Source: Escherichia phage vB_EcoM_ESCO32
Strand: one strand, 5' to 3'
Length of the DNA stretch: 64,000 nucleotides
Sequence record: OM386658.1
Shown here: positions 851-34,806 of the stretch, in pieces
Layout: the number at the start of each line of letters is the position of its first letter
Numbering within the stretch: the stretch's first letter is position 1
The notes under the pieces: model-generated
Told to the model about the DNA's origin: nothing
What the model saw: the letters and a program-made list of their open reading frames with translations, nothing else
Database searches by the model: none
Made by a program: the position numbers and the translations under genes

Positions 851-863
851 TGTGAAATGTTAT

Positions 864-1247: not shown

Positions 1248-1322
1248 GGTGATTCCTCGTTTACCGTTTAAAATTGCTTGCCCTACACGATAACTATAAG
1301 TTAACAGAGGCTATAAAGCAAG

Positions 1323-1553: not shown

Positions 1554-1571
1554 GATATGATTCCTATATTG

Positions 1572-1632
1572 GGCGGGAAACCATTTCCCGCCTTACGTGA
1601 TACATCTTAGTATAAGGGCGATCCGGTGTCAA
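1572..1632 (-). promoter_or_regulatory. early promoter plus leader stem-loop cassette
   Basis: minus strand TTGACA-17 bp-TAAGAT then GGCGGGAAAtggTTTCCCGCC (1572-1592) immediately upstream of the RBS of CDS 1323..1553. Confidence 0.6.
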
Positions 1633-1645
1633 TAGATAAAGTTAA

Positions 1646-1882
1646 TTATTTTGCATAATCAATAACAGCGCATATTTTATCATTTACATCTTGTAAATCA
1701 AAGGCATAGGCGATCTTGCCTTGTAATTTTCCACGGGTGAAACAGATACGATAAACGCCGTTTTTACTGTCATCTTCTGATTTTAGTATTTTTGCAACTG
1801 TTGCAATTAACAGATCATCAGAGTAAGCGATAAAACCGCCACGTAAAATAGGTGATTTTTTGAGGATCATGACTTCTTTCAT
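1646..1882 (-). CDS. hypothetical early protein (78 aa after start trimming)
   Basis: ORF track frame 1646..1930; the track start lies inside the -10 element, so start moved to in-frame ATG (MKEVMILKK) downstream of the promoter. Confidence 0.5.
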   Translation of the reverse strand: MKEVMILKKSPILRGGFIAYSDDLLIATVAKILKSEDDSKNGVYRICFTRGKLQGKIAYAFDLQDVNDKICAVIDYAK

Positions 1883-1929
1883 TTTCTTTTCCTGTTTTCG
1901 TTTTGGGTATGTTCTACCCTCTAAAAACA

Positions 1930-1958
1930 ATATTAAACTGTTGTGATTTATCGGTCAA
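1930..1958 (-). promoter_or_regulatory. sigma70-type promoter
   Basis: minus strand TTGACC-17 bp-TAATAT upstream of CDS 1646..1882. Confidence 0.45.
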
Positions 1959-2052
1959 TAGATGAGATTGTAAAGATTTGATAGTTTATTCCTTTGATGT
2001 TTTGTTATTTAATAGATATTAGCTATCAATATATAGCGGGATCTTCCGGTGA

Positions 2053-2205
2053 TTATCTTCCCCTGTCCCCAGGTGCCGCCCGTTCCATAATAATAATCAA
2101 AAGCAGGATAAAAGGCAAGATAAAAGGCAAATTATTCCCTATGTGCTTTAAACGCTCTAAACAGCTTTCTAACAGCTTTTTCATCCTGGCAAGGTGATTA
2201 GTCAT
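2053..2205 (-). CDS. possible small hydrophobic protein (about 50 aa)
   Basis: ATG with AAGG RBS in the 460-bp gap; translation MTNHLARMKKLLESCLERLKHIGNNLPFILPFIL...; contains a 12-bp tandem duplication; speculative. Confidence 0.25.
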   Translation of the reverse strand: MTNHLARMKKLLESCLERLKHIGNNLPFILPFILLLIIIMERAAPGDRGR

Positions 2206-2304
2206 TGTTACCTTGTTTAAGCGGTTATAATCGGTTTTAGGCTGTTTTACGCCACCTTTTACGTTTATTCTTTACGTGTTACTTCCATCGTGAAAAAAGA
2301 ATAC

Positions 2305-2336
2305 AAAAAAGGGCGCTTAGTGCGCCCCTTTCTTTT
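2305..2336 (-). terminator. rho-independent terminator
   Basis: minus strand GGGGCGCactaaGCGCCC stem followed by TTTTTTGTATTC. Confidence 0.55.
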
Positions 2337-2344
2337 ACCGTGTA

Positions 2345-2734
2345 TTAATATTCGTTATAATACATCGCTAACTTTTCATCAAAAGCCGATTGACGATCTG
2401 CATACTCCCAAAACATTTCTTGATCCTGTTGTTCGTCATCATCCATCATGTTGAATTGCGCAACCTCCTGGTAAGTGATCGCCATATTATAACGATAGGT
2501 GATCTCTTCTGCGATGTTTTCCGGTAAAGATGATTCTACACTGTCTAACAGCATATTTAACATCATTTCAGCCGCTTTTTCATCATTATCAAAGCAGTAA
2601 GCAGACCATGCCGCATGATGTTTATTTTTCATCTTTGCAATCAAGCCGTTGACTAAAAAAGGCGCTACGTTGTTAACGATACCCTGTAAAGATTGGAATT
2701 TTTCAACGTTAGAAACAGAAACCAGGTTGCGCAT
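2345..2734 (-). CDS. hypothetical early protein (129 aa after start trimming)
   Basis: ORF track frame 2345..2770; track start lies inside the leader hairpin; in-frame ATG (MRNLVSV) with AAAGG RBS chosen. Confidence 0.5.
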   Translation of the reverse strand: MRNLVSVSNVEKFQSLQGIVNNVAPFLVNGLIAKMKNKHHAAWSAYCFDNDEKAAEMMLNMLLDSVESSLPENIAEEITYRYNMAITYQEVAQFNMMDDDEQQDQEMFWEYADRQSAFDEKLAMYYNEY

Positions 2735-2757
2735 AGTATTTACCTTTTTGATTACCT

Positions 2758-2816
2758 GGCGGGAAACCATTTCCCGCCTACGTGGTAAATAATACCATAT
2801 TGGGGATCGGTGTCAA
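2758..2816 (-). promoter_or_regulatory. early promoter plus leader stem-loop cassette
   Basis: minus strand TTGACA-16 bp-TGgTATTAT then GGCGGGAAAtggTTTCCCGCC (2758-2778). Confidence 0.6.
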
Positions 2817-2822
2817 TACTTT

Positions 2823-3209
2823 TTATTCAATATAAATCAAATTATCTTCACCAATGTAAGCATGCACCGATGGCATTAATTTAGCTGCATTTGTTAGGCG
2901 GTTGGCGGTGTTAGTAGTGTATATTTCAGGGCGATCCCAAAAGCCTACGCCGTGACCGTTACGGGTGAAATGTAAGTCATTCCCGATCTGGTTTGCTGTT
3001 GCGCCGTCGCTCATTGCCTCAGAGATAGCAGCATCATTGGCATCACAATAAGCCGCTACGTCATGAATGATCCGCTGATGGGCTTGATCTGAAAAATCAT
3101 AATCGTCTAAGTTATCAATAAAATAGCCTTCATGATCCCTGGCGGATTCAGCAAAAATAAAGGCTTCTTTATAACCGTTGATGATTTCAATAATGATTTC
3201 AGTTTTCAT
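2823..3209 (-). CDS. hypothetical early protein (128 aa)
   Basis: ORF track; ATG start overlapping the stop of the upstream gene (translational coupling). Confidence 0.55.
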   Translation of the reverse strand: MKTEIIIEIINGYKEAFIFAESARDHEGYFIDNLDDYDFSDQAHQRIIHDVAAYCDANDAAISEAMSDGATANQIGNDLHFTRNGHGVGFWDRPEIYTTNTANRLTNAAKLMPSVHAYIGEDNLIYIE

Positions 3210-3421
3210 GCTGTACGCTCGACAATAATAATGGTTTGCGGTATCTCGTTTTCTACTACTAACAAGGCTTTTTTCTGTGTGATAGATATTTTAACACGTT
3301 GTAAAGTAGCGGTAAAATCTTTCATTTCATTATGCGCGGATTTAGTGCAATGCCATATTTCAGGTTTACCAATTTGCAAGCCGCGTAAAAATTCTGTTTT
3401 ACCTGTCTTATTCGTGATCAT
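3206..3421 (-). CDS. hypothetical early protein (about 71 aa)
   Basis: ORF track frame 3206..3439 (TTG in track); in-frame ATG (MITNKTGK) with AAGGTG RBS preferred. Confidence 0.45.
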   Translation of the reverse strand: MITNKTGKTEFLRGLQIGKPEIWHCTKSAHNEMKDFTATLQRVKISITQKKALLVVENEIPQTIIIVERTA

Positions 3422-3431
3422 TTGATTCACC

Positions 3432-3536
3432 TTATCCAATACCGTGGGAAGATAGGATCATGTTAGCCATAGTTGCAACCAATCCAACCGATAACACCAG
3501 GCCAACTACTACAACCGTGAAAATTTTCTCTAACAT
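3432..3536 (-). CDS. possible small hydrophobic peptide (34 aa)
   Basis: ATG with GAGGG RBS directly downstream of a promoter/hairpin cassette; MLEKIFTVVVVGLVLSVGLVATMANMILSSHGIG; below the ORF-track size cut-off. Confidence 0.25.
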   Translation of the reverse strand: MLEKIFTVVVVGLVLSVGLVATMANMILSSHGIG

Positions 3537-3554
3537 GATTCTACCCTCATTAAT

Positions 3555-3616
3555 GGGCGTTGCCTTATTGCCCCGCCCTATGTCGTACACTTTACCAGAT
3601 AACTGAATATTGTCAA
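3555..3616 (-). promoter_or_regulatory. early promoter plus imperfect leader stem-loop
   Basis: minus strand TTGACA-16 bp-TAAAGT then GC-rich imperfect palindrome GGGCGGGGCAAtaaggCAACGCCC. Confidence 0.5.
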
Positions 3617-3617
3617 A

Positions 3618-3812
3618 CTATTTTTTACAAGGGATCAGTAAACTTCTTGCTACCGCTTCACGTAAACCTTTACTTTTTATTAAATCTATTGTTGCAGGGT
3701 GGCAAGTAAAAGCCTTTGACCATTTTTGATCACCTGGTTTACGGGCGAAAATGTAAACTTCTCCGTCGATTTCATCCCAACGAGTATTGCTTGTTAGTTT
3801 TTTAAGCGCCAT
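3618..3812 (-). CDS. hypothetical early protein (about 64 aa)
   Basis: ORF track frame 3618..3842; track start (GTG) falls in the leader hairpin; in-frame ATG (MALKKL) chosen. Confidence 0.45.
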   Translation of the reverse strand: MALKKLTSNTRWDEIDGEVYIFARKPGDQKWSKAFTCHPATIDLIKSKGLREAVARSLLIPCKK

Positions 3813-3833
3813 GCTGATTTCTCTTTTAGTTAT

Positions 3834-3892
3834 GAGCGGCACTATTGCCGCCCTACGAAATACATTCTACCCGATTTATAATTGTTGTCAAA
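3834..3892 (-). promoter_or_regulatory. early promoter plus leader stem-loop cassette (variant B)
   Basis: minus strand TTGACA-16 bp-TAGAAT then GGGCGGCAatagTGCCGCTC (3834-3853). Confidence 0.55.
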
Positions 3893-4162
3893 CTATTTTT
3901 TCAAGCTCGACCAGTCAAAACACGGGGCGATCTCGTTAAAACTTGTGCCCTGTAAAGCACATAATTTTTTAGCAATAGCCGCCGTGACCTGGCGCTGTAC
4001 GCGCGGATCTGCTACTGATTGGAGAAAGTAGGCGGCTTTATATGTGATCATGCTTTCGCCTGTTTCCTTGTTAACGTGGTGCACGGTTTTAGCCTTATCA
4101 TCTTTTACCAGGGTGTAACCGGATTCGATGGCCTTGATTGCAACGTCCAATGATATTTTCAT
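3893..4162 (-). CDS. hypothetical early protein (89 aa)
   Basis: ORF track; ATG preceded by AAGAGATAA-type sequence and hairpin. Confidence 0.55.
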   Translation of the reverse strand: MKISLDVAIKAIESGYTLVKDDKAKTVHHVNKETGESMITYKAAYFLQSVADPRVQRQVTAAIAKKLCALQGTSFNEIAPCFDWSSLKK

Positions 4163-4181
4163 GATTTATCTCTTTATTGAT

Positions 4182-4203
4182 GGCGGGGAATACTCCCCCC
4201 GCC
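4182..4203 (-). promoter_or_regulatory. intercistronic GC-rich stem-loop without promoter
   Basis: GGCGGGGaatactCCCCCCGCC sits 8 nt after the stop of the upstream small ORF and 20 nt before the next ATG; no -35/-10 pair and no U-tract. Confidence 0.5.
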
Positions 4204-4210
4204 TTATTAA

Positions 4211-4381
4211 TTACTCTTCATCGTCGCCGTTGTAGTATTCAATGCCGTTTTCATCGGTTACGGTAATATTAACGCCACCGATAGCAACACGATCACGGGC
4301 AAACGTCATGGCTTCATTTAAATCTTCAGACCAAAAAATATTGTGACCTTTGCGCGATACATAAAACATAGTCGGGATCAT
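4211..4381 (-). CDS. small hypothetical protein (56 aa)
   Basis: unannotated gap ORF MIPTMFYVSRKGHNIFWSEDLNEAMTFARDRVAIGGVNITVTDENGIEYYNGDDEE; fills the gap between two cassettes. Confidence 0.45.
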   Translation of the reverse strand: MIPTMFYVSRKGHNIFWSEDLNEAMTFARDRVAIGGVNITVTDENGIEYYNGDDEE

Positions 4382-4402
4382 GATTTGTTTCTCTTCTGTT
4401 GT

Positions 4403-4464
4403 GAGCGGGAAACCACTTCCCGCCCTATGTGATAAACTTTACTACGTTGTTTTTCTGCTGTCAA
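4403..4464 (-). promoter_or_regulatory. early promoter plus leader stem-loop cassette
   Basis: minus strand TTGACA-17 bp-TAAAGT then GGCGGGAAgtggTTTCCCGCTC. Confidence 0.6.
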
Positions 4465-4465
4465 A

Positions 4466-4750
4466 TTATTTTTTAATGTTTTGCCCTACAAAATTGATCA
4501 CTTCCTTAAGCTGTTTCTCAGTCATGATCGTGCCTGGTAATTCTTCTTTGATTTCTTCCGGTAAATAGATATTACCGCGCCAAGTTAATAAACAACAGTT
4601 TTGATCTTCGCAGATGGAATAAGAGAAGATCCACTCATTATCATTCTCAAGCTCCCAAAAGCACAAAAAATCTTCTTTCCCTAAGTTTTCAACGGTTAAG
4701 CATAATCCGCGACGTGCTGCATAGTTGGAAAGTGCTTTTGTGATCTTCAT
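4466..4750 (-). CDS. hypothetical early protein (94 aa)
   Basis: ORF track; ATG; cassette upstream. Confidence 0.55.
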   Translation of the reverse strand: MKITKALSNYAARRGLCLTVENLGKEDFLCFWELENDNEWIFSYSICEDQNCCLLTWRGNIYLPEEIKEELPGTIMTEKQLKEVINFVGQNIKK

Positions 4751-4769
4751 AGCTTATCTCTTCTTTTAA

Positions 4770-4833
4770 GGCGGGGAAACCATTTCCCCGCTCTATGAGA
4801 TACAATATACTACCCGTTCGGTGTGCTGTCAAT
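4770..4833 (-). promoter_or_regulatory. early promoter plus leader stem-loop cassette
   Basis: minus strand TTGACA-17 bp-TATATT then GCGGGGAAAtggTTTCCCCGC (4771-4791). Confidence 0.6.
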
Positions 4834-5156
4834 CAATAATCTTCAATATTTTCTACATTGACAAAAGCATGTTTATTTTCTAAGTTTTCGCCGTACCATT
4901 GCCCCATGTTGATTTCTGCGGTGCGCAACCAGGACATGCCGCGTTGTATCTTTTTACTTGCAATCTCGATCCGGCTTTTGCATAGTGCTTTCGCTTGCAA
5001 TGTAAAAACACTATTGCCCTGTAATGCTTCCAGGTCATCATGTGCAAGGCGATACTCTTTAAAGCCTGATTCTATCATTTCAATAGCATCAAGTAAACGC
5101 GCGCGATGATAGAAAAAATCAGAGTTATCCAAATAAACACCGATCACAGATTTCAT
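4833..5156 (-). CDS. hypothetical early protein (about 107 aa)
   Basis: ORF track frame 4833..5216; track start lies inside the promoter spacer; in-frame ATG (MKSVIGV) downstream of the -10 chosen. Confidence 0.5.
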   Translation of the reverse strand: MKSVIGVYLDNSDFFYHRARLLDAIEMIESGFKEYRLAHDDLEALQGNSVFTLQAKALCKSRIEIASKKIQRGMSWLRTAEINMGQWYGENLENKHAFVNVENIEDY

Positions 5157-5199
5157 AATTTTACCCTTTTGTTTGCGGCCTTTGCCGTTTTCAAGATAT

Positions 5200-5228
5200 A
5201 TTTTAAAGCATAACAAAAAATTGTCAAA
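5200..5228 (-). promoter_or_regulatory. sigma70-type promoter (no leader hairpin)
   Basis: minus strand TTGACA-16 bp-TAAAAT. Confidence 0.5.
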
Positions 5229-5256
5229 CCTTTAAAGCGTACAACTATAAAACCTA

Positions 5257-5376
5257 TTAAAACACAATATATAACAACATGGCTATAGTAGCAATATAAC
5301 ATAAAACCATGCTTGTTTTCCTTCCTTCCTCATATGCTGGATTTATTACGCTATACTGTACGGGAATAACTTTCAT
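5257..5376 (-). CDS. possible small protein (39 aa)
   Basis: gap ORF MKVIPVQYSVINPAYEEGRKTSMVLCYIATIAMLLYIVF with AAGGA RBS; speculative. Confidence 0.25.
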   Translation of the reverse strand: MKVIPVQYSVINPAYEEGRKTSMVLCYIATIAMLLYIVF

Positions 5377-5385
5377 GTTGTTTCC

Positions 5386-5481
5386 TTAATGTCTTAAAAC
5401 GTGGTTTACAATAGAAACAAGTATACAGAAGAAAAAAGATCCTGACAATAAGATCCCGAAAAATAAATGTAAATAGGGCAT
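5386..5481 (-). CDS. possible small membrane peptide (31 aa)
   Basis: gap ORF MPYLHLFFGILLSGSFFFCILVSIVNHVLRH with GGAG RBS; speculative. Confidence 0.3.
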   Translation of the reverse strand: MPYLHLFFGILLSGSFFFCILVSIVNHVLRH

Positions 5482-5485
5482 GGTT

Positions 5486-5788
5486 TTACTCCTTAAAAAA
5501 ATCATTGACAATTAAACTGATAACGCCCAGCACCAGATCACCAGGTAGCGCCGCGCTTTCGTTGTTGCTTATTTGCACTTCCTCACTAGTACCAGCATGA
5601 TAAATCGCATGGTAAGCAATAGTATAATAACCTTTCGTTATTTCTTTAAGATTAATGATTAGCACGTTATTTGTTTCATCTTGAAACAATTTAGCGGTGA
5701 TAGTATTGTTTTCTTTTACACTATCGACTTTTATTGATGGATCAGTTACACCAGAAAAAAGAAAAAACGTTTTAGCTATGCCGTTCAT
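5486..5788 (-). CDS. hypothetical early protein (100 aa)
   Basis: ORF track; ATG with AAAGGAG RBS; promoter upstream. Confidence 0.55.
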   Translation of the reverse strand: MNGIAKTFFLFSGVTDPSIKVDSVKENNTITAKLFQDETNNVLIINLKEITKGYYTIAYHAIYHAGTSEEVQISNNESAALPGDLVLGVISLIVNDFFKE

Positions 5789-5810
5789 GTAGTTCTCCTT
5801 TGTTGTGTGT

Positions 5811-5839
5811 ATCTTATAACGTGCTTTCTATGTTGTCAA
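5811..5839 (-). promoter_or_regulatory. sigma70-type promoter
   Basis: minus strand TTGACA-17 bp-TAAGAT directly upstream of CDS 5486..5788. Confidence 0.5.
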
Positions 5840-6237
5840 TCTTTTATCTCGGTGCATTTTGCTAGGGTATACGTTGCAAGTGCTGACACTAGTTTTTCAT
5901 TGCTACGATCTGCGGCTGTACTGTGTACTTTTTGAATACTTTTTAGCCACGGCGTAAAGTTTTGAGTAGTAAGCACACTAGTAATAATTTCACATGGCAC
6001 GTTTTCATTTAAACCGTTAGCTATAGATTTATCTATTTTTGCCGTTAGTTGTGTAACAGCACCATAAGCGATCATGTGTGAATCCTCCATGATTTCATCG
6101 GGGATCGCATTATTAATGATCATCACGTTTTCCATTGCATCAACGGCGCTTAATTCTGCTACTGTGGAGGATATTGCCGCGTGAGATGTTCCAACCATGC
6201 CAAAAGAGATTAAACCAGCGATCAATAATTTTTTCAT
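5836..6237 (-). CDS. secreted or periplasmic hypothetical protein with signal peptide
   Basis: ORF track frame 5836..6249; start placed at MKKLLIAGLISFGMVGTSHA with GAGG RBS; N-terminal hydrophobic signal-like segment. Confidence 0.55.
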   Translation of the reverse strand: MKKLLIAGLISFGMVGTSHAAISSTVAELSAVDAMENVMIINNAIPDEIMEDSHMIAYGAVTQLTAKIDKSIANGLNENVPCEIITSVLTTQNFTPWLKSIQKVHSTAADRSNEKLVSALATYTLAKCTEIKD

Positions 6238-6245
6238 TTCTTGCC

Positions 6246-6428
6246 TCATATATGTTTTATTGAGATTATATTGTCACTATATACAACGTTTTTCAACGTG
6301 TCAATAAAAATCTTATTGCCTTCAATCCCCAGGATCACGCCGCTAGTTATGAAGCCATATTGATCACGGTATCGGGCGCATAACCTTTGCCCCTGGGCTA
6401 GTGCCTTGCTTATTTCTTCTAATCTCAT
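6246..6428 (-). CDS. hypothetical early protein (60 aa)
   Basis: ORF track; ATG with AGGAG RBS; stop overlaps the downstream gene start. Confidence 0.45.
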   Translation of the reverse strand: MRLEEISKALAQGQRLCARYRDQYGFITSGVILGIEGNKIFIDTLKNVVYSDNIISIKHI

Positions 6429-6520
6429 TTTAAAGCTCCTGTAAAGCCGTCTAACGTTGATTTATAGGCTTGCCCTGGCGTTACCATTGCCTATGGGTAA
6501 CAAGCCTCTATATAAGCTAA

Positions 6521-6548
6521 AAGGGCGCTTATTGCGCCCTTTTTTGTT
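6521..6548. terminator. GC hairpin, possible bidirectional terminator
   Basis: AAGGGCGCttattGCGCCCTT followed by TTTTTGTT on plus strand and shorter T run on minus. Confidence 0.5.
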
Positions 6549-6684
6549 ATTCGTTCCAGTATCTTTTTGTGCTGCGATCTCTTTTTGTTTTGTTCCGCTT
6601 ATCGCCTTTCTTGGTGATCTCTTCGTTCCAATTTTTACGCGCCTTGCTGCGGTTGAATTTTTCGATCTGCTGTGATGCGTTCAT
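6547..6684 (-). CDS. small highly basic protein (45 aa)
   Basis: gap ORF MNASQQIEKFNRSKARKNWNEEITKKGDKRNKTKRDRSTKRYWNE with GAGGA RBS; lysine/arginine rich. Confidence 0.4.
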   Translation of the reverse strand: MNASQQIEKFNRSKARKNWNEEITKKGDKRNKTKRDRSTKRYWNE

Positions 6685-6699
6685 GTTTTTTCCTCTTAA

Positions 6700-7059
6700 T
6701 TACGCCACGTTATGCTGTTTTGCCAGGATTACGATCATGCTTGCAATATATAACCAATAATTTTCCCGCTCACGGGTAACGGTTGTTTCTTTGCTTGTTT
6801 CTTTTATGTACTTCCATTCAATTAACAAGTGATCGATCTCGTTATAATCAAAAGCAATATTGACTTCTGACGGTAAACCTTGTAACCATGAGGCTATTGC
6901 CTTGATCACGTTATAATTGTAACGTTTTTGATTATCGGGATACCAGTATTCAGAGTTAAAACGGCGCATCAGTTCGGTGATCTTTTCTTTTTCGGTTGTA
7001 GTACCATCAAAAGAAATAGCCGACACAATGTAAGTTTTAATTGCTTTTACTGATTTCAT
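6700..7059 (-). CDS. hypothetical early protein (119 aa)
   Basis: ORF track; ATG; cassette upstream. Confidence 0.55.
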   Translation of the reverse strand: MKSVKAIKTYIVSAISFDGTTTEKEKITELMRRFNSEYWYPDNQKRYNYNVIKAIASWLQGLPSEVNIAFDYNEIDHLLIEWKYIKETSKETTVTRERENYWLYIASMIVILAKQHNVA

Positions 7060-7079
7060 AATCTTATCTCTTTATTGAT

Positions 7080-7138
7080 GGCGGGAAACCATTTCCCGCC
7101 GTTGTTGTTACTTTACTTATAAATGATGCTACTGTCAA
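7080..7138 (-). promoter_or_regulatory. early promoter plus leader stem-loop cassette
   Basis: minus strand TTGACA-17 bp-TAAAGT then GGCGGGAAAtggTTTCCCGCC (7080-7100). Confidence 0.6.
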
Positions 7139-7145
7139 ACGGATA

Positions 7146-7316
7146 TTATTTGTTTTTTAACGTTAATGTTCCCAGCTTATCAGCGTGACGCAGACCAGGA
7201 AAGATCCATTTTCCTGATTCATCTTTTACCGGGGCTTTAAGCGTAGCGCCCAGATTGGCGGCATTAACTTTACGTGCAACGTTGCGAGCGGCTTCACGGG
7301 TGGCGAAAGTGATCAT
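7146..7316 (-). CDS. small hypothetical protein (56 aa)
   Basis: gap ORF MITFATREAARNVARKVNAANLGATLKAPVKDESGKWIFPGLRHADKLGTLTLKNK; hairpin upstream. Confidence 0.45.
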   Translation of the reverse strand: MITFATREAARNVARKVNAANLGATLKAPVKDESGKWIFPGLRHADKLGTLTLKNK

Positions 7317-7340
7317 GGTGTTTTCCTCTTCTCTTTGTTA

Positions 7341-7400
7341 GGCGGTGGGCTATTCCACCGCCTTGATGAATATAGTTTACTTTATTTTGTTAAGATTGCA
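7341..7400 (-). promoter_or_regulatory. promoter-like element plus leader stem-loop
   Basis: GGCGGTGGgctattCCACCGCC hairpin (7341-7362) preceded on minus strand by TTGCAA-16 bp-TAAACT. Confidence 0.5.
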
Positions 7401-7407
7401 AGCGGTT

Positions 7408-7623
7408 TTATGAAATAATTGTCAAAGTAAAATCATAATCTTTTGACAGTTTATATTGTACCTTGTTCCCGTAATAGTCACCTTTACGTAAAGATCCGCG
7501 AATACCTATTACATCCTTTACATCTTTAAGATTTTTCACGCCTGTAATGTCTTTATTGAAATGATCGTGATCAGAAAATAAAACCTGCTTTGCATTTTTT
7601 AACAATGTGCGGATATTAGCCAT
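7408..7623 (-). CDS. hypothetical early protein (71 aa)
   Basis: ORF track; ATG; cassette upstream. Confidence 0.5.
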   Translation of the reverse strand: MANIRTLLKNAKQVLFSDHDHFNKDITGVKNLKDVKDVIGIRGSLRKGDYYGNKVQYKLSKDYDFTLTIIS

Positions 7624-7643
7624 TTGATAATCTCTCTCACTAT

Positions 7644-7701
7644 GAGCGGCACTATTGCCGCCCTATGAATTACATTTTACTAATTTTAGTTATCTTGTCA
7701 A
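7644..7701 (-). promoter_or_regulatory. early promoter plus leader stem-loop cassette (variant B)
   Basis: minus strand TTGACA-16 bp-TAAAAT then GGGCGGCAatagTGCCGCTC (7644-7663). Confidence 0.6.
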
Positions 7702-7709
7702 TATTATTT

Positions 7710-7937
7710 TTAGTTTAATGCATCCAGGCACAACAAGCGATCAACATTTAGATCGGTTAGGCTAATCGTTGGCACCTGGTAGGATTCGATATATTCGACG
7801 CTCGACCACTGACCAAAATTAGCGACCGCCCAGCTATTCAAGGAAGAGTGAAGATCATCCCCTTTCTTCTCTGTGATGACTGCTACTACCTGGGAGCTTC
7901 CAACCGTACCGGATACGCGAACAATAACGATAGCCAT
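7710..7937 (-). CDS. hypothetical early protein (75 aa)
   Basis: ORF track; ATG with AAAGG RBS. Confidence 0.5.
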   Translation of the reverse strand: MAIVIVRVSGTVGSSQVVAVITEKKGDDLHSSLNSWAVANFGQWSSVEYIESYQVPTISLTDLNVDRLLCLDALN

Positions 7938-7960
7938 AATTATAACCTTTCTTTGATTTG

Positions 7961-8020
7961 GCGGGAAACCATTTCCCGCCCTATGTGATAAACTATACCA
8001 GAATATAAAACGTTGTCAAC
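7961..8020 (-). promoter_or_regulatory. early promoter plus leader stem-loop cassette
   Basis: minus strand TTGACA-16 bp-TATAGT then GGCGGGAAAtggTTTCCCGCC (7961-7981). Confidence 0.6.
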
Positions 8021-8028
8021 TGTTTTTA

Positions 8029-8268
8029 TTACATTCCAACCATAGCGGCACGGATTGCAGTTTTACTATACTTGAATCCGTCCGGTGTTTTATCTTGTCC
8101 AGTTTGCTCCAGGAATAACATCATATCACGCGCGGCATCATTCTTATTTGTATTAGCTGCGATAAATTCACGCGCAAGATTATAAAAACCTTCATCGTTG
8201 TTGATCCAAAGGCTTACATTCCAATGAGTTTTGTTTTTGTGACCGTTGTACATTTTAGATTTAGCCAT
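8029..8268 (-). CDS. hypothetical early protein (about 79 aa)
   Basis: ORF track frame 8029..8325; track start overlaps the -10 TATAAT; in-frame ATG (MAKSKMYNGHK) downstream of hairpin chosen. Confidence 0.5.
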   Translation of the reverse strand: MAKSKMYNGHKNKTHWNVSLWINNDEGFYNLAREFIAANTNKNDAARDMMLFLEQTGQDKTPDGFKYSKTAIRAAMVGM

Positions 8269-8291
8269 GATGTTAATCTCTTTTTCAGTGA

Positions 8292-8350
8292 GGCGGGAAC
8301 TATTCCCGCTCTCTATGCAAAACATTATACGCCTTTAAACCTAGTTTGCA
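8292..8350 (-). promoter_or_regulatory. early promoter plus leader stem-loop cassette
   Basis: minus strand TTGCAA-16 bp-TATAAT then GGCGGGAAtagTTCCCGC. Confidence 0.6.
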
Positions 8351-8370
8351 AGTGCTTTTTAAAAATATGC

Positions 8371-8601
8371 TTAGATTGCAATCGCGTCTAGGCTATAATA
8401 ATAATAAGTGCCGTATTGGTGTACTTTATTACCTTTTATTTCAGTGCTGAATGAATCCGAACGATTAGCATATGATGTTAATTTATAATACTTTGCTTTA
8501 CTAATACGTTGCCATACACCGCAGATCCGCTGTAAGTAAGTAGTTTTATTAGTAGTAGTATCTTTTACGGTTTTAACTTCGGTCATATACATATTAGCCA
8601 T
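8371..8601 (-). CDS. hypothetical early protein (about 76 aa)
   Basis: ORF track frame 8371..8634; track start is inside the leader hairpin; in-frame ATG (MANMYMTEV) chosen. Confidence 0.45.
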   Translation of the reverse strand: MANMYMTEVKTVKDTTTNKTTYLQRICGVWQRISKAKYYKLTSYANRSDSFSTEIKGNKVHQYGTYYYYSLDAIAI

Positions 8602-8620
8602 TTTATTATACCTAGTTATA

Positions 8621-8683
8621 GGCGGGGGAACCATTCCCCCGTCCTGATATGAAACATTTTACGCTTTTTATTCGTGCTGTCAA
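8621..8683 (-). promoter_or_regulatory. early promoter plus leader stem-loop cassette
   Basis: minus strand TTGACA-16 bp-TAAAAT then GGACGGGGGAAtggTTCCCCCGCC. Confidence 0.6.
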
Positions 8684-8689
8684 TGCTTT

Positions 8690-9055
8690 TTATAAATCTT
8701 TTTTACGTTTAACATCGCTTGCATGACTGTATACAGCGATCCCATTGTCACGGCAAAAACGGGAAAGGTAAGCATAATTTGAAAAGTCTTTGCCTTCCAG
8801 GTTGATGACCTTGCTAAACTCTTCCAGGGCAACGGTATCAAAATGATCCCCGTAACCATAGTGAAACGGAACGTTAACGACTTCAATCAGTTTACCGCCG
8901 ATCTCAACGTCAACCATCAAAGAGAAATAAGTATTACCATAAGACTTTTGAAACCAGCGACGGGCGCTAATATGTACCGCTTCAATGCTGGATAGTTCAA
9001 TTTTAGCAGTGTTAGCCAGGGTAGCATAAGCAGAAACATTGATATTTTTAGCCAT
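8690..9055 (-). CDS. hypothetical early protein (121 aa)
   Basis: ORF track; ATG; promoter upstream. Confidence 0.55.
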   Translation of the reverse strand: MAKNINVSAYATLANTAKIELSSIEAVHISARRWFQKSYGNTYFSLMVDVEIGGKLIEVVNVPFHYGYGDHFDTVALEEFSKVINLEGKDFSNYAYLSRFCRDNGIAVYSHASDVKRKKDL

Positions 9056-9102
9056 AGTCTTTAATCTCTTTTGATTAGTTAGGAGTATTCCCGATAAAAG
9101 TT

Positions 9103-9131
9103 ATTATGCTTGTACTATCGTTCGTTGTCAA
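9103..9131 (-). promoter_or_regulatory. sigma70-type promoter (no hairpin)
   Basis: minus strand TTGACA-17 bp-CATAAT. Confidence 0.5.
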
Positions 9132-9150
9132 TAGCACAAGACTAAAACTT

Positions 9151-9330
9151 TTAACGATAATCATCATATGCTTTATTGACCTGGCGAATATAGCATTCAA
9201 AAGCTAGATCAATAGATTTATATTCACGGATATAATTACCATAGGAAACCACATACATTTCTATAGCTTCCTCATATGCCAGGAGGATAGAATCTAAACC
9301 TACGATCTCAGTCTTCGCAATAATAGCCAT
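9151..9330 (-). CDS. small hypothetical protein (59 aa)
   Basis: gap ORF MAIIAKTEIVGLDSILLAYEEAIEMYVVSYGNYIREYKSIDLAFECYIRQVNKAYDDYR; tandem promoters upstream. Confidence 0.45.
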   Translation of the reverse strand: MAIIAKTEIVGLDSILLAYEEAIEMYVVSYGNYIREYKSIDLAFECYIRQVNKAYDDYR

Positions 9331-9367
9331 GCTTTTATTCCTTAGTAATGTTTCAATCTATATAAGC

Positions 9368-9472
9368 ATTATAGCTTACTGATTTTAGGTGTCAACTGAT
9401 TTTTTATTTCACCTTTGAGAAGTTGCCCCGCTCTATGTGGTACATATTACGGGGCTTGTTTGCATATGTCAA
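9368..9472 (-). promoter_or_regulatory. two tandem sigma70-type promoters with long-loop GC hairpin between them
   Basis: minus strand TTGACA-17-TAATAT (9444-9472) and TTGACA-16-TATAAT (9368-9395); GCCCCG...CGGGGC inverted repeat around 9424-9455. Confidence 0.5.
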
Positions 9473-9475
9473 CCC

Positions 9476-10030
9476 TTACACAATGCAATTTTCATAATTT
9501 TTTAAGGCTTGTATTTTTTCCTCTTCTGTCGGCGTGTATGGCTGGATCTCTTCCTCTTCCATGTTAGGCATGATTTCTTCCTCTTCCTCCTGGTCGTCCT
9601 GGTCTTCCTCTTGCGCTATGGTAACAAGTTTATTGATCTTCTCCTGGGCTTTAATCAATTTTGCATCTAGCACCATTTTAGCGGTGTTGTATACAGTCCA
9701 TGCCATGCGCTTTTCTTCGTATGCCTTATCTAGTGCGGCTAATTTAGCGGGATACTCTTCTAACACCTTAAAAGCCGGATCAATGCTATATAAGGGATTA
9801 TTTTTAGCGTCATCGCTTGGATCTGCGGCGCTTGCAATGTCAGCGTTACCGTTTGCCAGCCAACCAGGGCGAACGGATCGCGTCTTTGTGTGACCGTTGC
9901 TCTTTGCCGCTCGATTCCCTATCTGCTCCCCGCTGTACCCTACCATGTGATCGATCATGTCATCTGGTATTATGCGCGGATCATTAGCGTCATGCTTTAC
10001 CCATGACTGGATCACATATTCACGCCCCAT
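9476..10030 (-). CDS. hypothetical protein with strongly acidic C-terminal tail (184 aa)
   Basis: ORF track; C-terminus QEEDQDDQEEEEEIMPNMEEEEIQPYTPTEEE; start overlaps the upstream gene end. Confidence 0.55.
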   Translation of the reverse strand: MGREYVIQSWVKHDANDPRIIPDDMIDHMVGYSGEQIGNRAAKSNGHTKTRSVRPGWLANGNADIASAADPSDDAKNNPLYSIDPAFKVLEEYPAKLAALDKAYEEKRMAWTVYNTAKMVLDAKLIKAQEKINKLVTIAQEEDQDDQEEEEEIMPNMEEEEIQPYTPTEEEKIQALKNYENCIV

Positions 10031-10292
10031 GTTCGTTCGCCTCTTCTGTTAGTAGTTTACACACCTTAAACATGCTTGCCGCGTCTTTTGACGGTAGCCA
10101 GCCTATGCGATACACTCCAGGATCTGGATTCGTTATATCCGTTAGTTGGGCATTACGATGATTAAAAATAGTGTAACCGCCGCCAGCACGGGGATAAACA
10201 TTATCTTTAAACCTGATAGCGTATCTCGCCAGGTTGAACGTCGTAGCATGTTCAAAAGCGATCACATTATCAAAAACTTTTAGAAAAAACAA
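10020..10292 (-). CDS. hypothetical early protein (90 aa)
   Basis: ORF track; TTG start with GGAGGA RBS 5 nt upstream. Confidence 0.5.
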   Translation of the reverse strand: MFFLKVFDNVIAFEHATTFNLARYAIRFKDNVYPRAGGGYTIFNHRNAQLTDITNPDPGVYRIGWLPSKDAASMFKVCKLLTEEANEHGA

Positions 10293-10294
10293 GA

Positions 10295-10441
10295 TTATCC
10301 TCCCCAGCGTTTAAAGCCCGTTGCACGGTTATTTTTTAACTCTCGTTTTAGTCTCTTGCAACGGTTTACAAGTGCAAACCGTGCCGGAGTGGTAACAGTA
10401 GCGCCGTTTTTGGTGTGAATACTCATTACATATTGTTTCAT
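10295..10441 (-). CDS. possible small basic protein (48 aa)
   Basis: gap ORF MKQYVMSIHTKNGATVTTPARFALVNRCKRLKRELKNNRATGFKRWGG downstream of cassette. Confidence 0.35.
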   Translation of the reverse strand: MKQYVMSIHTKNGATVTTPARFALVNRCKRLKRELKNNRATGFKRWGG

Positions 10442-10460
10442 AAAGTTTTATCCTATGTAA

Positions 10461-10514
10461 GCGGGAACTATTCCCGCTTTAAGATAGCTTATCAGGTTTT
10501 AGTGCAATGTCAAC
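10461..10514 (-). promoter_or_regulatory. early promoter plus leader stem-loop cassette
   Basis: minus strand TTGACA-16 bp-TAAGCT then GCGGGAAtagTTCCCGC. Confidence 0.55.
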
Positions 10515-10519
10515 CGTTT

Positions 10520-10882
10520 TTATTCGTAAATTTTACCGCTTTCCACCCATACCATAACACGGCGCATGTTATCCCATGCATCTTGTCGCAGATTTAAGGC
10601 ATGCAATTCTTCCGTGGTGCTCATACCTGGAACGGGCTTATTATACGTTACAAAGAGATCGCCAGCATATTCATAAGCCAGGGTAAGATCACATTGAATC
10701 ATCTTTTTAATCATAGCATCAAGCATCATATTAGCGGCATGTTGATCACGTTTTAACGGTAATGTCGCGATCTGTGTGCGATAGCTTTCGATCCGTGCAT
10801 CCACTGCATCACGCGAAAGATTTTTCACGTCATCGCGGAAAGATACCAGGTTTAACATGATAGTATTGATTTGCTTGCTCAT
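10520..10882 (-). CDS. hypothetical early protein (120 aa)
   Basis: ORF track; ATG with AAAGGG RBS. Confidence 0.55.
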   Translation of the reverse strand: MSKQINTIMLNLVSFRDDVKNLSRDAVDARIESYRTQIATLPLKRDQHAANMMLDAMIKKMIQCDLTLAYEYAGDLFVTYNKPVPGMSTTEELHALNLRQDAWDNMRRVMVWVESGKIYE

Positions 10883-10904
10883 TGTGTTACCCTTTCTTTG
10901 ATTT

Positions 10905-10964
10905 GGCGGGAAACCATTTCCCGCCCTATGTGGTATATATTACTAAATTATTTTTCAGTGTCAA
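10905..10964 (-). promoter_or_regulatory. early promoter plus leader stem-loop cassette
   Basis: minus strand TTGACA-16 bp-TAATAT then GGCGGGAAAtggTTTCCCGCC (10905-10925). Confidence 0.6.
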
Positions 10965-10967
10965 GCC

Positions 10968-11240
10968 TTAAAGCAAAAATGCTACATCTTGCGCTTTTAG
11001 TGTAGTGTCGATCATTTTCGGGCTTTTATAATCAACAAAGCGCGCGGTTTTTTCAATAGCGAAACCTAAATAATCTTGCTTATTGAAATTACATTCTTTT
11101 TTAAATGTTTCCCGTGCCACGGTGATCGCTGCATCCAGGGATAAACGCCCATCAATATTAATATTAGCGAAAGATCCGCCACCGCGCATAGGTTTACCAG
11201 TGATACCCATTACGATCATTGATGCGCTATATGATGCCAT
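10968..11240 (-). CDS. hypothetical early protein (90 aa)
   Basis: ORF track; ATG; cassette upstream. Confidence 0.55.
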   Translation of the reverse strand: MASYSASMIVMGITGKPMRGGGSFANINIDGRLSLDAAITVARETFKKECNFNKQDYLGFAIEKTARFVDYKSPKMIDTTLKAQDVAFLL

Positions 11241-11262
11241 GATTATTTCTCTCTTCTGTTAT

Positions 11263-11320
11263 GAGCGGCACTATTGCCGCCCTATGTGATACATCTTATC
11301 AGATTAAAAAACGTTATCAA
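11263..11320 (-). promoter_or_regulatory. early promoter plus leader stem-loop cassette (variant B)
   Basis: minus strand TTGATA-16 bp-TAAGAT then GGGCGGCAatagTGCCGCTC (11263-11282). Confidence 0.55.
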
Positions 11321-11328
11321 GAATATTT

Positions 11329-11424
11329 TTAAAAAATAATAACCGCTACTACAACCCAAAATGGAACGGCGAGAATGATAGCGTTAATCGTTCCAACCGC
11401 CAAGCTGTTTTCTTTCTTGATCAT
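11329..11424 (-). CDS. possible small membrane peptide (31 aa)
   Basis: gap ORF MIKKENSLAVGTINAIILAVPFWVVVAVIIF; first gene position of the minus array; speculative. Confidence 0.2.
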   Translation of the reverse strand: MIKKENSLAVGTINAIILAVPFWVVVAVIIF

Positions 11425-11959: not shown

Positions 11960-11962
11960 TAT

Positions 11963-11990
11963 TGACAAGCCCAGGGATCGGGCTTATACT
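11963..11990 (+). promoter_or_regulatory. sigma70-type promoter with palindromic spacer
   Basis: TTGACA-16 bp-TATACT on plus strand; spacer contains AGCCC...GGGCT inverted repeat; no downstream ORF identified. Confidence 0.45.
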
Positions 11991-34729: not shown

Positions 34730-34788
34730 TTGACTTTCTTTAAAAACAGTTTATAGTATAAGACATAGAGCGGAGGATTGTCCTCCGC
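34730..34788 (+). promoter_or_regulatory. promoter plus leader stem-loop cassette (plus-strand copy) upstream of terC
   Basis: TTGACT-16 bp-TATAGT then CATAGAGCGGAGGAttgTCCTCCGC; same architecture as the minus-strand early cassettes. Confidence 0.55.
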
Positions 34789-34806
34789 ATTAAAGAGGAG
34801 AAAAGA

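What the first reader, a model, noticed from the sequence alone, without database searches (positions are those of the whole stretch)
1572..11320. About 18 copies of a conserved promoter plus GC-rich leader stem-loop cassette drive individual small early genes
Across the ~10.5-kb minus-strand array almost every small gene is preceded by TTGACA, a 16-17 bp spacer, a -10 hexamer, the sequence CATAGG and a perfect GC-rich hairpin (GGCGGGAAAtggTTTCCCGCC, or GGGCGGCAatagTGCCGCTC) just 5-prime of the RBS. The hairpins sit downstream of promoters and lack U-tracts, so they are transcribed leader structures, not terminators. Such dense, sequence-conserved leader hairpins suggest RNA stabilisation, an RNase III-type processing signal, or a binding site for a phage or host regulator. 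Several ORF-track starts fall inside these elements and were trimmed.
Basis: seen in the sequence. Interest (0 to 1): 0.6.

Follow-up and report, generated by a model that had tools for sequence, protein, structure and literature searches.

The report
Early promoter plus leader-hairpin gene cassettes
A phi92-type E. coli phage drives about half of the small genes in one early-gene array from repeated cassettes (strong host-type promoter, then a conserved GC-rich hairpin at the start of the mRNA); these closely resemble the known "PeSL" cassettes of T4-type phages and also mark where genes are gained, lost and moved between related phages.

Summary
On the minus strand of window 1572-11320 there are 15 units of TTGACA-N16/17-TAnnnT, 6 nt, C(A/G)TAG, then a 7-10 bp GC-rich hairpin. 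There is also one promoterless hairpin and 3-5 decayed copies. Shuffled sequence gives 0. The window comes from a phi92/alia-type myovirus (Justusliebigvirus).

A covariance model finds the hairpin only in this array plus one isolated copy, both in the window and in a whole 147-kb relative genome. It always scores best in the sense orientation of the downstream gene.

Stems differ between copies through changes on both arms. The apex AAU(G/A)G(U) is nearly invariant, and also occurs in Certrevirus phages.

21 of 38 homology breakpoints against six relatives fall inside cassettes. Single-gene gains and losses carry cassette-derived junction overlaps.

The closest known kind is the PeSL cassette of T4-type phages. 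The difference is that here the hairpin sits at a fixed position about +4 to +25 in the transcript and has no U-tract, so a 5'-leader role (mRNA protection, or a tag for a factor) fits better than termination. RNase III processing is unlikely.

The phAPEC8 GenBank record already marks these 20-mers, as "PHIRE promoters".

Verdict: a new variant of a known kind, of moderate interest. The function is inferred, not shown.

The parts
11263..11320 (-). Cassette: TTGATA-16-TAAGAT, CACATAG, hairpin GGGCGGCAatagTGCCGCTC; gene 10968-11240
10905..10964 (-). Cassette: TTGACA-16-TAATAT, CACATAG, hairpin GGCGGGAAAtggTTTCCCGCC; gene 10520-10882
   Evidence: (42.4 bits)
10459..10513 (-). Cassette variant: the hairpin AAGCGGGAAtagTTCCCGCTT starts 6 nt after the -10 and ACATAGGA follows it, serving as the RBS; gene 10295-10441
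8620..8683 (-). Cassette: TTGACA-16-TAAAAT, hairpin GGACGGGGGAAtggTTCCCCCGCCT; gene 8371-8601 (absent from alia and 536P1)
8293..8351 (-). Cassette: TTGCAA-16-TATAAT, CATAGAGA, hairpin GCGGGAAtagTTCCCGC; gene 8029-8268
7960..8019 (-). Cassette: TTGACA-16-TATAGT, CACATAG, hairpin GGCGGGAAAtggTTTCCCGCC; gene 7710-7937
7644..7701 (-). Cassette: TTGACA-16-TAAAAT, TTCATAG, hairpin GGGCGGCAatagTGCCGCTC; gene 7408-7623 (absent from muut and 536P1)
7340..7401 (-). Cassette: TTGCAA-16-TAAACT, hairpin AGGCGGTGGaatagcCCACCGCCT; gene 7146-7316
7080..7138 (-). Cassette: TTGACA-17-TAAAGT, hairpin GGCGGGAAAtggTTTCCCGCC; gene 6700-7059
4771..4832 (-). Cassette: TTGACA-17-TATATT, CTCATAGA, hairpin GCGGGGAAAtggTTTCCCCGC; gene 4466-4750
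4403..4464 (-). Cassette: TTGACA-17-TAAAGT, CACATA, hairpin GGGCGGGAAgtggtTTCCCGCTC; gene 4211-4381
4182..4203 (-). Promoterless hairpin GGCGGGGggagtattCCCCGCC, 9 nt after the stop codon of gene 4211-4381 and 19 nt before the ATG of gene 3893-4162; kept without a promoter in six relatives
3834..3891 (-). Cassette: TTGACA-16-TAGAAT, TTCGTAG, hairpin GGGCGGCAatagTGCCGCTC; gene 3618-3812
3555..3616 (-). Cassette with an imperfect stem: TTGACA-16-TAAAGT, GACATA, GGGCG(GGGCAATAAGGCAA)CGCCC; gene 3432-3536
2758..2816 (-). Cassette: TTGACA-16-TATTAT, CCACGTA, hairpin GGCGGGAAAtggTTTCCCGCC; gene 2345-2734
1572..1632 (-). Cassette: TTGACA-17-TAAGAT, CACGTAA, hairpin GGCGGGAAAtggTTTCCCGCC; gene 1323-1553 (absent from alia and 536P1)
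9415..9472 (-). Decayed cassette: TTGACA-17-TAATAT, CACATAGAGCGGGGCAAC, 3' arm lost; followed by a second consensus promoter (9360-9395, TTGACA-16-TATAAT) with no hairpin
9085..9131 (-). Decayed cassette: TTGACA-17-CATAAT with the hairpin remnant ATCGGGAATACTCC
1270..1321 (-). Decayed cassette: TTGCTT-17-TATAGT, GTAGGGCAAGC; acts as one partner of the 1297-1589 gene presence/absence junction
6519..6543 (.). Canonical two-way intrinsic terminator (AAAAGGGCGCaataaGCGCCCTTTT) inside the array, for contrast with the leader hairpins; similar ones lie at 2305-2333 and 830-848
34730..34796 (+). Isolated cassette of the same design outside the array: TTGACT-16-TATAGT, CATAGA, GCGGAGGAttgTCCTCCGC, AAAGAGGAG, ATG at 34807 (TerC-like membrane protein)
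   Evidence: (31.1 bits)

Best explanation
These are modular early-gene expression cassettes of the PeSL type, in a phi92-like (Justusliebigvirus) phage. Each unit has an A/T-rich upstream stretch, a near-consensus sigma70 promoter read by unmodified host RNA polymerase, a start site at the conserved C-R (CATAG/CGTAG) 7-8 nt after the -10, a GC-rich hairpin from about +4 to +25 of the mRNA, an unstructured purine-rich linker with an AAGAG(A) ribosome-binding site, and a small gene of unknown function. The most likely role of the hairpin is as a 5'-terminal RNA structure. With only 3-4 unpaired 5' nucleotides, it would shield each short early mRNA from 5'-end-dependent decay (the RppH/RNase E pathway) and make expression independent of the downstream gene. 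In read-through transcripts from the upstream unit, the same hairpin would block 3' exonucleases. Its nearly invariant apex AAU(G/A)G(U) suggests that it also serves as a common tag recognised by some factor. Because 60-90 bp of similar sequence recurs between genes, the cassettes also act as homology patches through which relatives delete, insert and relocate single genes. Shown here: the sequence anatomy, its non-random occurrence, its restriction to the array, its orientation, co-variation of the stems, conservation of the apex, and breakpoint enrichment with junction overlaps. Inferred: promoter activity, the start site, formation of the hairpin in RNA, and every functional role.
For: Identity of the genome: 95-98% identity to Justusliebigvirus phages. 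Non-randomness: 14 strict units against 0 in 20 shuffles. Fixed geometry: in 95 promoter-linked hairpins from 10 arrays, the core stem starts 9-14 nt after the -10 in 84 cases, mode 12; anatomy table. Stable fold with a free RBS: -14.4 to -20.8 kcal/mol, z -2.5 to -4.6. No U-tract, unlike the three true terminators in the same array. Covariance-model hits occur only in the array plus one isolated copy, in the 64-kb window and in the 147-kb alia genome, and each scores 16-25 bits higher in the sense orientation. Pairing is kept through changes on both arms: 89% and 82% of cells are paired against 38-62% when the partner column is slid, 7/10 and 5/10 pairs change on both sides, and the covariation score is 0.50 and 0.47 against 0.22 and 0.15 in shuffles, 0/500 (also 61). 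Apex A-A-U-R-G-U is conserved at or above 83% per position, apart from the R position, while mid-stem columns carry about 1 bit. The same CATAGG + hairpin design occurs in Certrevirus phages. Non-Watson-Crick cells lean towards G.U on the sense strand, 18 against 8 A.C. Shuffling: 21 of 38 distinct breakpoints lie in the 14% of sequence covered by cassettes; six clean single- or double-gene presence/absence events have 7-70 nt of junction overlap; one gene is translocated in 536P1. The PeSL precedent, including promoter activity and recombination between copies, is in PMC2839356 and PMC4122927.
Against: There are no transcript 5'/3' ends, half-lives or reporter data for any phage of this group, so promoter use, the start site and the RNA fold are predictions. 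Three to four unpaired 5' nucleotides is at the upper limit for protection from 5'-end-dependent decay. One hairpin (4182-4203) is kept without a promoter in seven phages, so being at the 5' end cannot be the only role. About eight promoters in the array work without this hairpin. The covariation sets were chosen for having a stem, and paralogous copies are not independent. The G.U/A.C asymmetry rests on few independent events, roughly 4 against 3 by my count. Breakpoint enrichment is partly trivial, because viable indels must end between genes and cassettes fill 61% of the intergenic bases. In RB49, a PeSL stem-loop alone lowered downstream lacZ about as much as the rrnB T1 terminator, so an attenuator role cannot be dismissed.
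Confidence: 0.55

Rival explanations
1. They would stop or damp read-through from the upstream unit, so that each small gene is expressed only from its own promoter.
For: In RB49, a PeSL stem-loop placed between a promoter and lacZ cut expression about as much as rrnB T1. The hairpins are intergenic and GC-rich. The promoterless hairpin at 4182-4203 sits right after a stop codon.
Against: There is no U-tract (0-4 T in the 8 nt after the stem), whereas the array uses three canonical hairpin + T-run terminators where it does terminate. The hairpin lies downstream of the unit's own predicted start site, so an efficient terminator there would also abort the cassette's own transcript. In T4-type PeSLs the stem-loop is mostly upstream of or within the promoter. 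A reduction in lacZ could equally reflect RNA processing or translation effects.
Confidence: 0.15
2. The hairpin, and mainly its conserved apex AAU(G/A)G(U), is the binding or cleavage site of a dedicated trans-acting factor that treats all early transcripts as one regulon. This could be a phage RNA-binding protein or endoribonuclease for early shut-off or protection, or a host factor. It is compatible with the best explanation.
For: The apex is nearly invariant while the stem changes by compensatory substitutions, and this holds across Stephanstirmvirinae and Certrevirus. The position relative to the start site is fixed. The element is confined to one temporal block of genes.
Against: No candidate factor has been identified, and all ten array proteins tested belong to PHROG families of unknown function. 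The promoterless copy has a different loop (GGAGUAUU). Apex conservation could partly reflect recent spread of copies by recombination.
Confidence: 0.25
3. The element acts at the DNA level. It could be an operator palindrome at +5 to +25 for a dimeric repressor that shuts off early promoters, a cruciform or recombination signal for a site-specific enzyme, or a phage-specific promoter as annotated ('PHIRE promoter') in the phAPEC8 record.
For: It is a perfect palindrome placed where operators often lie. The phAPEC8 record labels the 20-mers as promoters. RB49 PeSL recombination junctions were mapped within or next to the stem-loop. Breakpoints cluster at cassettes here.
Against: Half-site sequences differ between copies through paired changes on both arms, which keeps a fold but not a recognition sequence. 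Hits are strongly orientation-specific relative to the gene. Published descriptions of relatives say these phages have no RNA polymerase of their own (for Certrevirus CB7), and a complete sigma70 promoter lies directly upstream. Junction overlaps of 7-70 nt fall in different parts of the cassette (-35, -10 or hairpin), as expected for general homologous recombination rather than one defined site.
Confidence: 0.1
4. The hairpins are RNase III processing sites, like those between phage T7 early genes.
For: They are regularly spaced intergenic hairpins in an early region.
Against: The stems are 7-10 bp with 3-8 nt loops. RNase III substrates are roughly 20 bp or longer, often with internal loops (established knowledge). 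Each gene already has its own promoter, so no processing is needed to separate the messages.
Confidence: 0.03

Closest known systems
PeSL (promoter-early stem-loop) cassettes of T4-type phages RB49/phi1, PST/T4 and nt-1/KVP40 (Arbiol et al. 2010, PMC2839356; Comeau et al. 2014, PMC4122927)
   Same: The build is the same: upstream stop codon in an A/T-rich stretch, near-consensus sigma70 -35/-10, a G-run/C-run stem-loop, a Shine-Dalgarno sequence and the start of a small ORFan. Both are repeated densely in a hyperplastic early region. Both coincide with insertions, deletions, replacements and displacements of single genes between close relatives.
   Different: The virus lineage differs (Stephanstirmvirinae and Certrevirus, not T4-type). 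Here the stem-loop has one fixed place, downstream of the start site (core stem 9-14 nt after the -10), whereas PeSL stem-loops lie upstream of, within or overlapping the promoter, or just before the start site, and are read as terminators. Here the loop apex is conserved. Mini-circles and terminator activity were not tested here.
5'-terminal stabiliser stem-loops of bacterial and phage mRNAs (ompA 5' UTR, T7 gene 10 leader); from established knowledge, not tested here
   Same: A stable hairpin within a few nucleotides of the 5' end, followed by an unstructured ribosome-binding region.
   Different: Those are single-gene cases defined by half-life measurements. This is a repeated, sequence-related family on at least 15 transcripts, and no decay data exist for it.
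'Putative promoter determined with PHIRE' and 'host dependent promoter determined with MEME' features in the phAPEC8 GenBank record NC_020079
   Same: These are the same elements in a related phage. The MEME feature is the sigma70 promoter. The PHIRE 20-mer (for example ATAGGGCGGCAATGGTGCCG) is the start-site motif plus the 5' arm and loop of the hairpin.
   Different: The record calls the 20-mer a promoter and does not note the inverted repeat. The sigma70-like early promoters of rV5 and Certrevirus are described in papers with no mention of a hairpin.
Lambda-type nut/boxB and HK022 put leader RNA hairpins
   Same: Short hairpins with sequence-specific loops in early-transcript leaders that act on the transcribing polymerase or bind a phage protein.
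   Different: There are only one or two per genome, placed ahead of terminators. Here there is one per small gene, there is no boxA-like partner, and there is no sequence similarity. Rfam finds nothing.

Membership tests
PeSL cassettes | Near-consensus sigma70-type early promoter with an A/T-rich upstream region | tested here: met
   -35 is TTGACA in 12 of 15, spacer 16/17, -10 TAnnnT; the 25 nt upstream are 75% A+T against 62% window-wide. By sequence only; activity was not measured.
PeSL cassettes | Adjacent stable stem-loop rich in G-runs and C-runs, within the same intergenic unit as the SD and start codon | tested here: met
   7-10 bp GC-rich stems, -14 to -21 kcal/mol; the RBS and ATG follow within 17-24 nt.
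PeSL cassettes | Many copies concentrated in a hyperplastic region of small non-essential ORFans | tested here: met
   15 + 1 copies in 10 kb; outside the array only one copy in the 64-kb window and one in the 147-kb alia genome; the gene products are PHROGs of unknown function.
PeSL cassettes | Association with indels, replacements and displacements between close relatives, through recombination between copies | tested here: met
   21 of 38 breakpoints lie in cassettes (14% of bases); junction overlaps of 7-70 nt; a translocated gene in 536P1. Partly confounded by the intergenic location.
PeSL cassettes | Stem-loop placed upstream of, within or overlapping the promoter (or just before the start site), acting as terminator/attenuator of upstream transcription | tested here: not met
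   Here the core stem starts 9-14 nt after the -10, that is after the predicted start site, in 84 of 95 cases. No U-tract. Terminator activity itself cannot be tested with these tools.
PeSL cassettes | Occurrence in T4-type myoviruses | tested here: not met
   The window is a Justusliebigvirus (Stephanstirmvirinae). The design is also found in Phapecoctavirus and Certrevirus.
PeSL cassettes | Formation of excised mini-circles | not testable with these tools
   Needs inverse PCR on infected cells or virions.
Intrinsic (Rho-independent) terminators | GC-rich hairpin followed directly by a U-tract | tested here: not met
   Leader hairpins have 0-4 T in the next 8 nt. The true terminators at 830-848, 2305-2333 and 6519-6543 have 5-7.
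RNase III processing sites | Double-stranded stem of roughly two helical turns | tested here: not met
   Stems are 7-10 bp.
5'-terminal stabiliser hairpins | Hairpin within a few (about 4 or fewer) unpaired nucleotides of the primary 5' end | tested here: inconclusive
   The predicted start at the C-R, 7-8 nt after the -10, leaves 3-4 (up to 6) unpaired nt, but the start site is only predicted.
5'-terminal stabiliser hairpins | Hairpin lengthens mRNA half-life | not testable with these tools
   Needs decay measurements.
Any Rfam family | Match to a curated covariance model | tested here: not met
   No match at E <= 1 in the whole window.

The most novel reading that the evidence does not exclude
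The hairpin with its invariant AAU(G/A)G(U) apex is a dedicated RNA tag. It would mark at least 15 independently transcribed early mRNAs for one phage- or host-encoded factor that protects them or switches them off together. It would be conserved across two myovirus subfamilies and absent from Rfam, making it a new cis-regulatory RNA family that defines an 'early regulon' after transcription.
Probability: 0.2. Interest if true: 0.7.

Novelty: new variant of a known kind. Interest (0 to 1): 0.4.

Why it matters
The phi92/phAPEC8/Certrevirus group is widely isolated for therapy and biocontrol, yet its transcription programme has not been studied experimentally. These cassettes give a concrete, testable map of its immediate-early units. 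They extend the PeSL idea (portable promoter + stem-loop modules that both express and shuffle accessory genes) beyond T4-type phages. They suggest that the 'phage promoter' features in at least one reference record are really leader hairpins. They also offer compact, strong promoter + 5' hairpin parts of the kind used in synthetic biology to stabilise and insulate mRNAs. If the conserved apex is a recognition site, it would give a handle on how early gene expression is coordinated or shut off in these phages.

Tried and rejected
1. A pattern scan of viral contigs with CATAGGGCGG-N6-14-CCGC returned 120 loci with a single match each in unrelated contigs. These are chance hits and were discarded.

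2. Rfam with permissive thresholds over the whole window found nothing.

3. A strand-asymmetry test (G.U against A.C at non-Watson-Crick stem positions) was meant to separate sense RNA from a DNA palindrome. With an unbiased hairpin finder, the Certrevirus loci gave mostly noise, and the Stephanstirmvirinae set gave roughly 4 against 3 independent events. On the curated alignments it was 18 against 8 cells. This is suggestive only.

4. A single loop-anchored alignment could not hold one consensus structure, because odd and even loop lengths shift the register by one column. I split it into two alignments.

5. The phAPEC8 and phi92 genome papers are not in the library, so I cannot say how their authors described the elements beyond the GenBank features. 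The phi92 record annotates only ribosome-binding sites there.

6. Literature searches for transcript mapping or hairpin descriptions in this phage group found none.

7. A PHROG scan of ten array proteins gave only families of unknown function.

8. An apparent promoter upstream of the 536P1 copy of the promoterless hairpin turned out to be a false positive of my permissive promoter rule, inside coding sequence.

9. My interim count of 15 strict cassettes was wrong. It is 14, plus one bulged copy. Two plus-strand 'hits' in the array are the same hairpins read backwards.

Full report
WHAT IS THERE

Read on the minus strand, window 860-11,600 is an array of 33 small genes (gene list). In front of 15 of them lies the same unit:
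- an A/T-rich stretch that often holds the upstream stop codon (75% A+T against 62% window-wide);
- TTGACA (exact in 12 of 15);
- a 16- or 17-nt spacer;
- a TAnnnT -10 hexamer;
- six variable bases, then C-A/G-T-A-G/A;
- a GC-rich hairpin of 7-10 bp with a 3-6 nt loop;
- a 17-24 nt purine-rich linker with AAGAG(A) 7-10 nt before the ATG.

A rule-based scan finds 14 strict units in the array, against 0 in each of 20 shuffles. A 15th unit (3555-3616) has a bulged stem. One hairpin (4182-4203) has no promoter. Three further units (about 9415-9472, 9085-9131 and 1270-1321) are visibly decayed copies.

'About 18 copies' is therefore fair. 'Almost every gene' is not: 16 of 33 genes have a hairpin leader, and 15 of the 23 genes with an upstream gap of at least 60 nt have the full cassette. 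About eight other promoters in the array lack this hairpin. The array also has three textbook hairpin + T-run terminators, at 830-848, 2305-2333 and 6519-6543.

WHERE IT COMES FROM

The region is 95-98% identical to Justusliebigvirus phages (vB_EcoM_ZYD, alia, VEcB, phi92 relatives) of the Stephanstirmvirinae.

In alia the array lies at 78-88 kb. It sits between an iteron-like non-coding region and a non-coding stretch. In phi92 the same array (gp225-248) runs up to about 1.1 kb before the right terminal repeat.

All ten array proteins tested fall in PHROG families of unknown function.

HOW SPECIFIC THE ELEMENT IS

Rfam has no match anywhere in the window.

A covariance model built from 23 distinct odd-loop hairpins hits only the array and one isolated site. 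This holds for the 64-kb window and for the complete 147-kb alia genome. The isolated site is window 34,762-34,796 on the plus strand, in front of a TerC-like membrane protein gene. Each hit scores 16-25 bits higher in the orientation of the downstream gene. The same picture holds in phi92, A150, VEcB, muut, 536P1 and phAPEC8.

By BLAST, the cassette family occurs in 142 phage records: Justusliebigvirus, Phapecoctavirus, several roughly 150-kb Klebsiella and Citrobacter phages, and Certrevirus phages of Cronobacter, Enterobacter and Pectobacterium, which belong to the Vequintavirinae. The Certrevirus copies keep the CATAGG + GCGGGGAAtggTTCCCCGC design.

IS THE FOLD SELECTED?

Across 95 promoter-linked hairpins from ten arrays, the perfect core stem begins 9-14 nt after the -10 in 84 cases, with a mode of 12.

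On loop-anchored alignments of distinct sequences:
- 89% (odd loops) and 82% (even loops) of cells pair, against 38-62% when the partner column is slid;
- 7 of 10 and 5 of 10 pairs show changes on both arms (G-C, C-G, A-U and U-A at the same position);
- covariation scores are 0.50 and 0.47, against 0.22 and 0.15 in shuffles, with 0 of 500 shuffles as high (the model-based alignment agrees).

Two caveats apply. The sequences were picked for having a stem, and paralogues are not independent.

The loop apex A-A-U-R-G-U is more conserved than the middle of the stem. That pattern is the reverse of neutral expectation and points to recognition or a special fold.

Non-Watson-Crick positions lean towards G.U on the sense strand (18 cells against 8 A.C). 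By independent events this is only about 4 against 3, so the RNA-versus-DNA question is not settled by this test.

Predicted leaders fold into the hairpin alone (-14.4 to -20.8 kcal/mol, z -2.5 to -4.6), and the ribosome-binding region stays open.

WHAT THE CASSETTES DO TO THE GENOME

I aligned window 1-12,500 to the arrays of alia, A150, VEcB, muut, 536P1 and phAPEC8. This gives 38 distinct homology breakpoints:
- 21 lie in the 14% of sequence covered by cassettes;
- 13 lie in coding sequence;
- 4 lie in other intergenic DNA.

Six events are clean presence/absence of one or two genes bounded by two cassettes, with 7-70 nt of shared junction sequence:
- 1297-1589, absent from alia and 536P1;
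- 1636-1953, absent from muut;
- 7393-7657, absent from muut and 536P1;
- 8367-8625, absent from alia and 536P1;
- 10,522-11,572, absent from muut;
- 11,284-11,532, absent from A150.

In 536P1, the homologue of gene 10,520-10,882 sits at a different place in the array.

The junctions fall in different parts of the cassette (-35, -10 or hairpin). That is what general homologous recombination between similar repeats would give. Part of the enrichment is trivial, because viable indels must end between genes and cassettes fill 61% of the intergenic bases.

MOST LIKELY MECHANISM

The unit is an immediate-early expression module read by unmodified host sigma70 polymerase. The conserved pyrimidine-purine step, 7-8 nt after the -10, is the expected start site (established knowledge of E. 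coli start-site choice). The hairpin therefore occupies roughly +4 to +25 of the mRNA.

A terminator at that place would also abort the unit's own transcript. The hairpin has no U-tract, and the array uses proper terminators elsewhere. Termination is therefore not the best reading.

A stable hairpin within 3-4 nt of the 5' end is the classical arrangement that protects E. coli mRNAs from 5'-end-dependent decay (established knowledge; not tested here). In read-through RNA, the same hairpin would block 3' exonucleases. That could explain why one hairpin is kept without a promoter in seven phages.

The invariant apex suggests an added role as a common tag for a factor. RNase III is unlikely for stems of 7-10 bp.

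All functional statements in this section are inference. I found no transcript data for this phage group.

COMPARISON WITH WHAT IS KNOWN

The closest described kind is the PeSL (promoter-early stem-loop) cassette of T4-type phages (PMC2839356, PMC4122927). The parts list, the clustering among small ORFans and the link with gene shuffling are all the same.

Three things differ here: the virus lineage, the fixed post-start-site position of the stem-loop, and the conserved apex. PeSL stem-loops lie upstream of, within or overlapping the promoter, or just before the start site, and were read as terminators.

The elements have been seen before without being recognised as hairpins. The phAPEC8 GenBank record labels the 20-mers (start-site motif plus 5' arm and loop) as 'putative promoter determined with PHIRE', and the sigma70 part as 'host dependent promoter'. 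Papers on rV5 and on Certrevirus CB7/CR3 report the clustered sigma70-like early promoters but no stem-loop.

VERDICT

The main open question, whether the conserved apex is a recognition site, can be tested directly with start-site mapping and hairpin mutants.

Noticed in passing
window 12230-12760: A non-coding, iteron-like region directly upstream of the array. It has three direct repeats of about 70-79 nt (12354-12574), four copies of an AAAAACTTTAAATAAT-like 20-mer, and a perfect 19-nt inverted repeat (12293-12311 / 12314-12332). In alia and muut it is annotated only as 'repeat_region'. It is a candidate replication origin or regulatory region.
   Followed up: partly
window 1-860: An AT-rich stretch with no convincing genes after the last array gene. 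In phi92 the homologous array ends about 1.1 kb before the right direct terminal repeat, so the array abuts the physical end of the genome. That may bear on which genes enter the cell first or last.
   Followed up: partly
window 34730-34807 (+): An isolated cassette of the same design, far from the array and on the other strand: TTGACT-16-TATAGT, CATAGA, GCGGAGGAttgTCCTCCGC, AAAGAGGAG, ATG. It lies in front of a 325-aa ORF that corresponds to the TerC-like membrane protein of alia (gp063).
   Followed up: partly
L004 (phAPEC8 NC_020079) 7813-11662: The record's 'putative promoter determined with PHIRE' features coincide with the start-site motif plus the 5' arm and loop of the leader hairpins, directly downstream of complete sigma70 promoters. 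This is probably a mis-annotation, and it may have been copied into related records.
   Followed up: yes
L127 (MG065639) and hits H2-H4, H23: Records named 'Campylobacter phage' A150, A145, A110a and C3 (flagged UNVERIFIED) are about 95% identical to this E. coli phage group over the whole array. The host label looks doubtful.
   Followed up: no
window 4182-4203 (-): A hairpin with no promoter, 9 nt after a stop codon and 19 nt before the next ATG. It is kept in that form in alia, A150, VEcB, muut and 536P1, with a one-base loop indel. Its loop (GGAGUAUU) lacks the AAU(G/A)G apex of the other copies.
   Followed up: yes
window 10459-10513 (-): A cassette variant with the parts in a different order. 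The hairpin starts only 6 nt after the -10, and the ACATAGG motif follows the hairpin, where AGGA appears to serve as the ribosome-binding site.
   Followed up: no
L129 (Phapecoctavirus 536P1) about 8250-9970, against window 8626-10950: Gene order differs. The homologue of window gene 10520-10882 lies between the homologues of 8690-9055 and 9476-10030, so a cassette-flanked gene has been relocated.
   Followed up: partly
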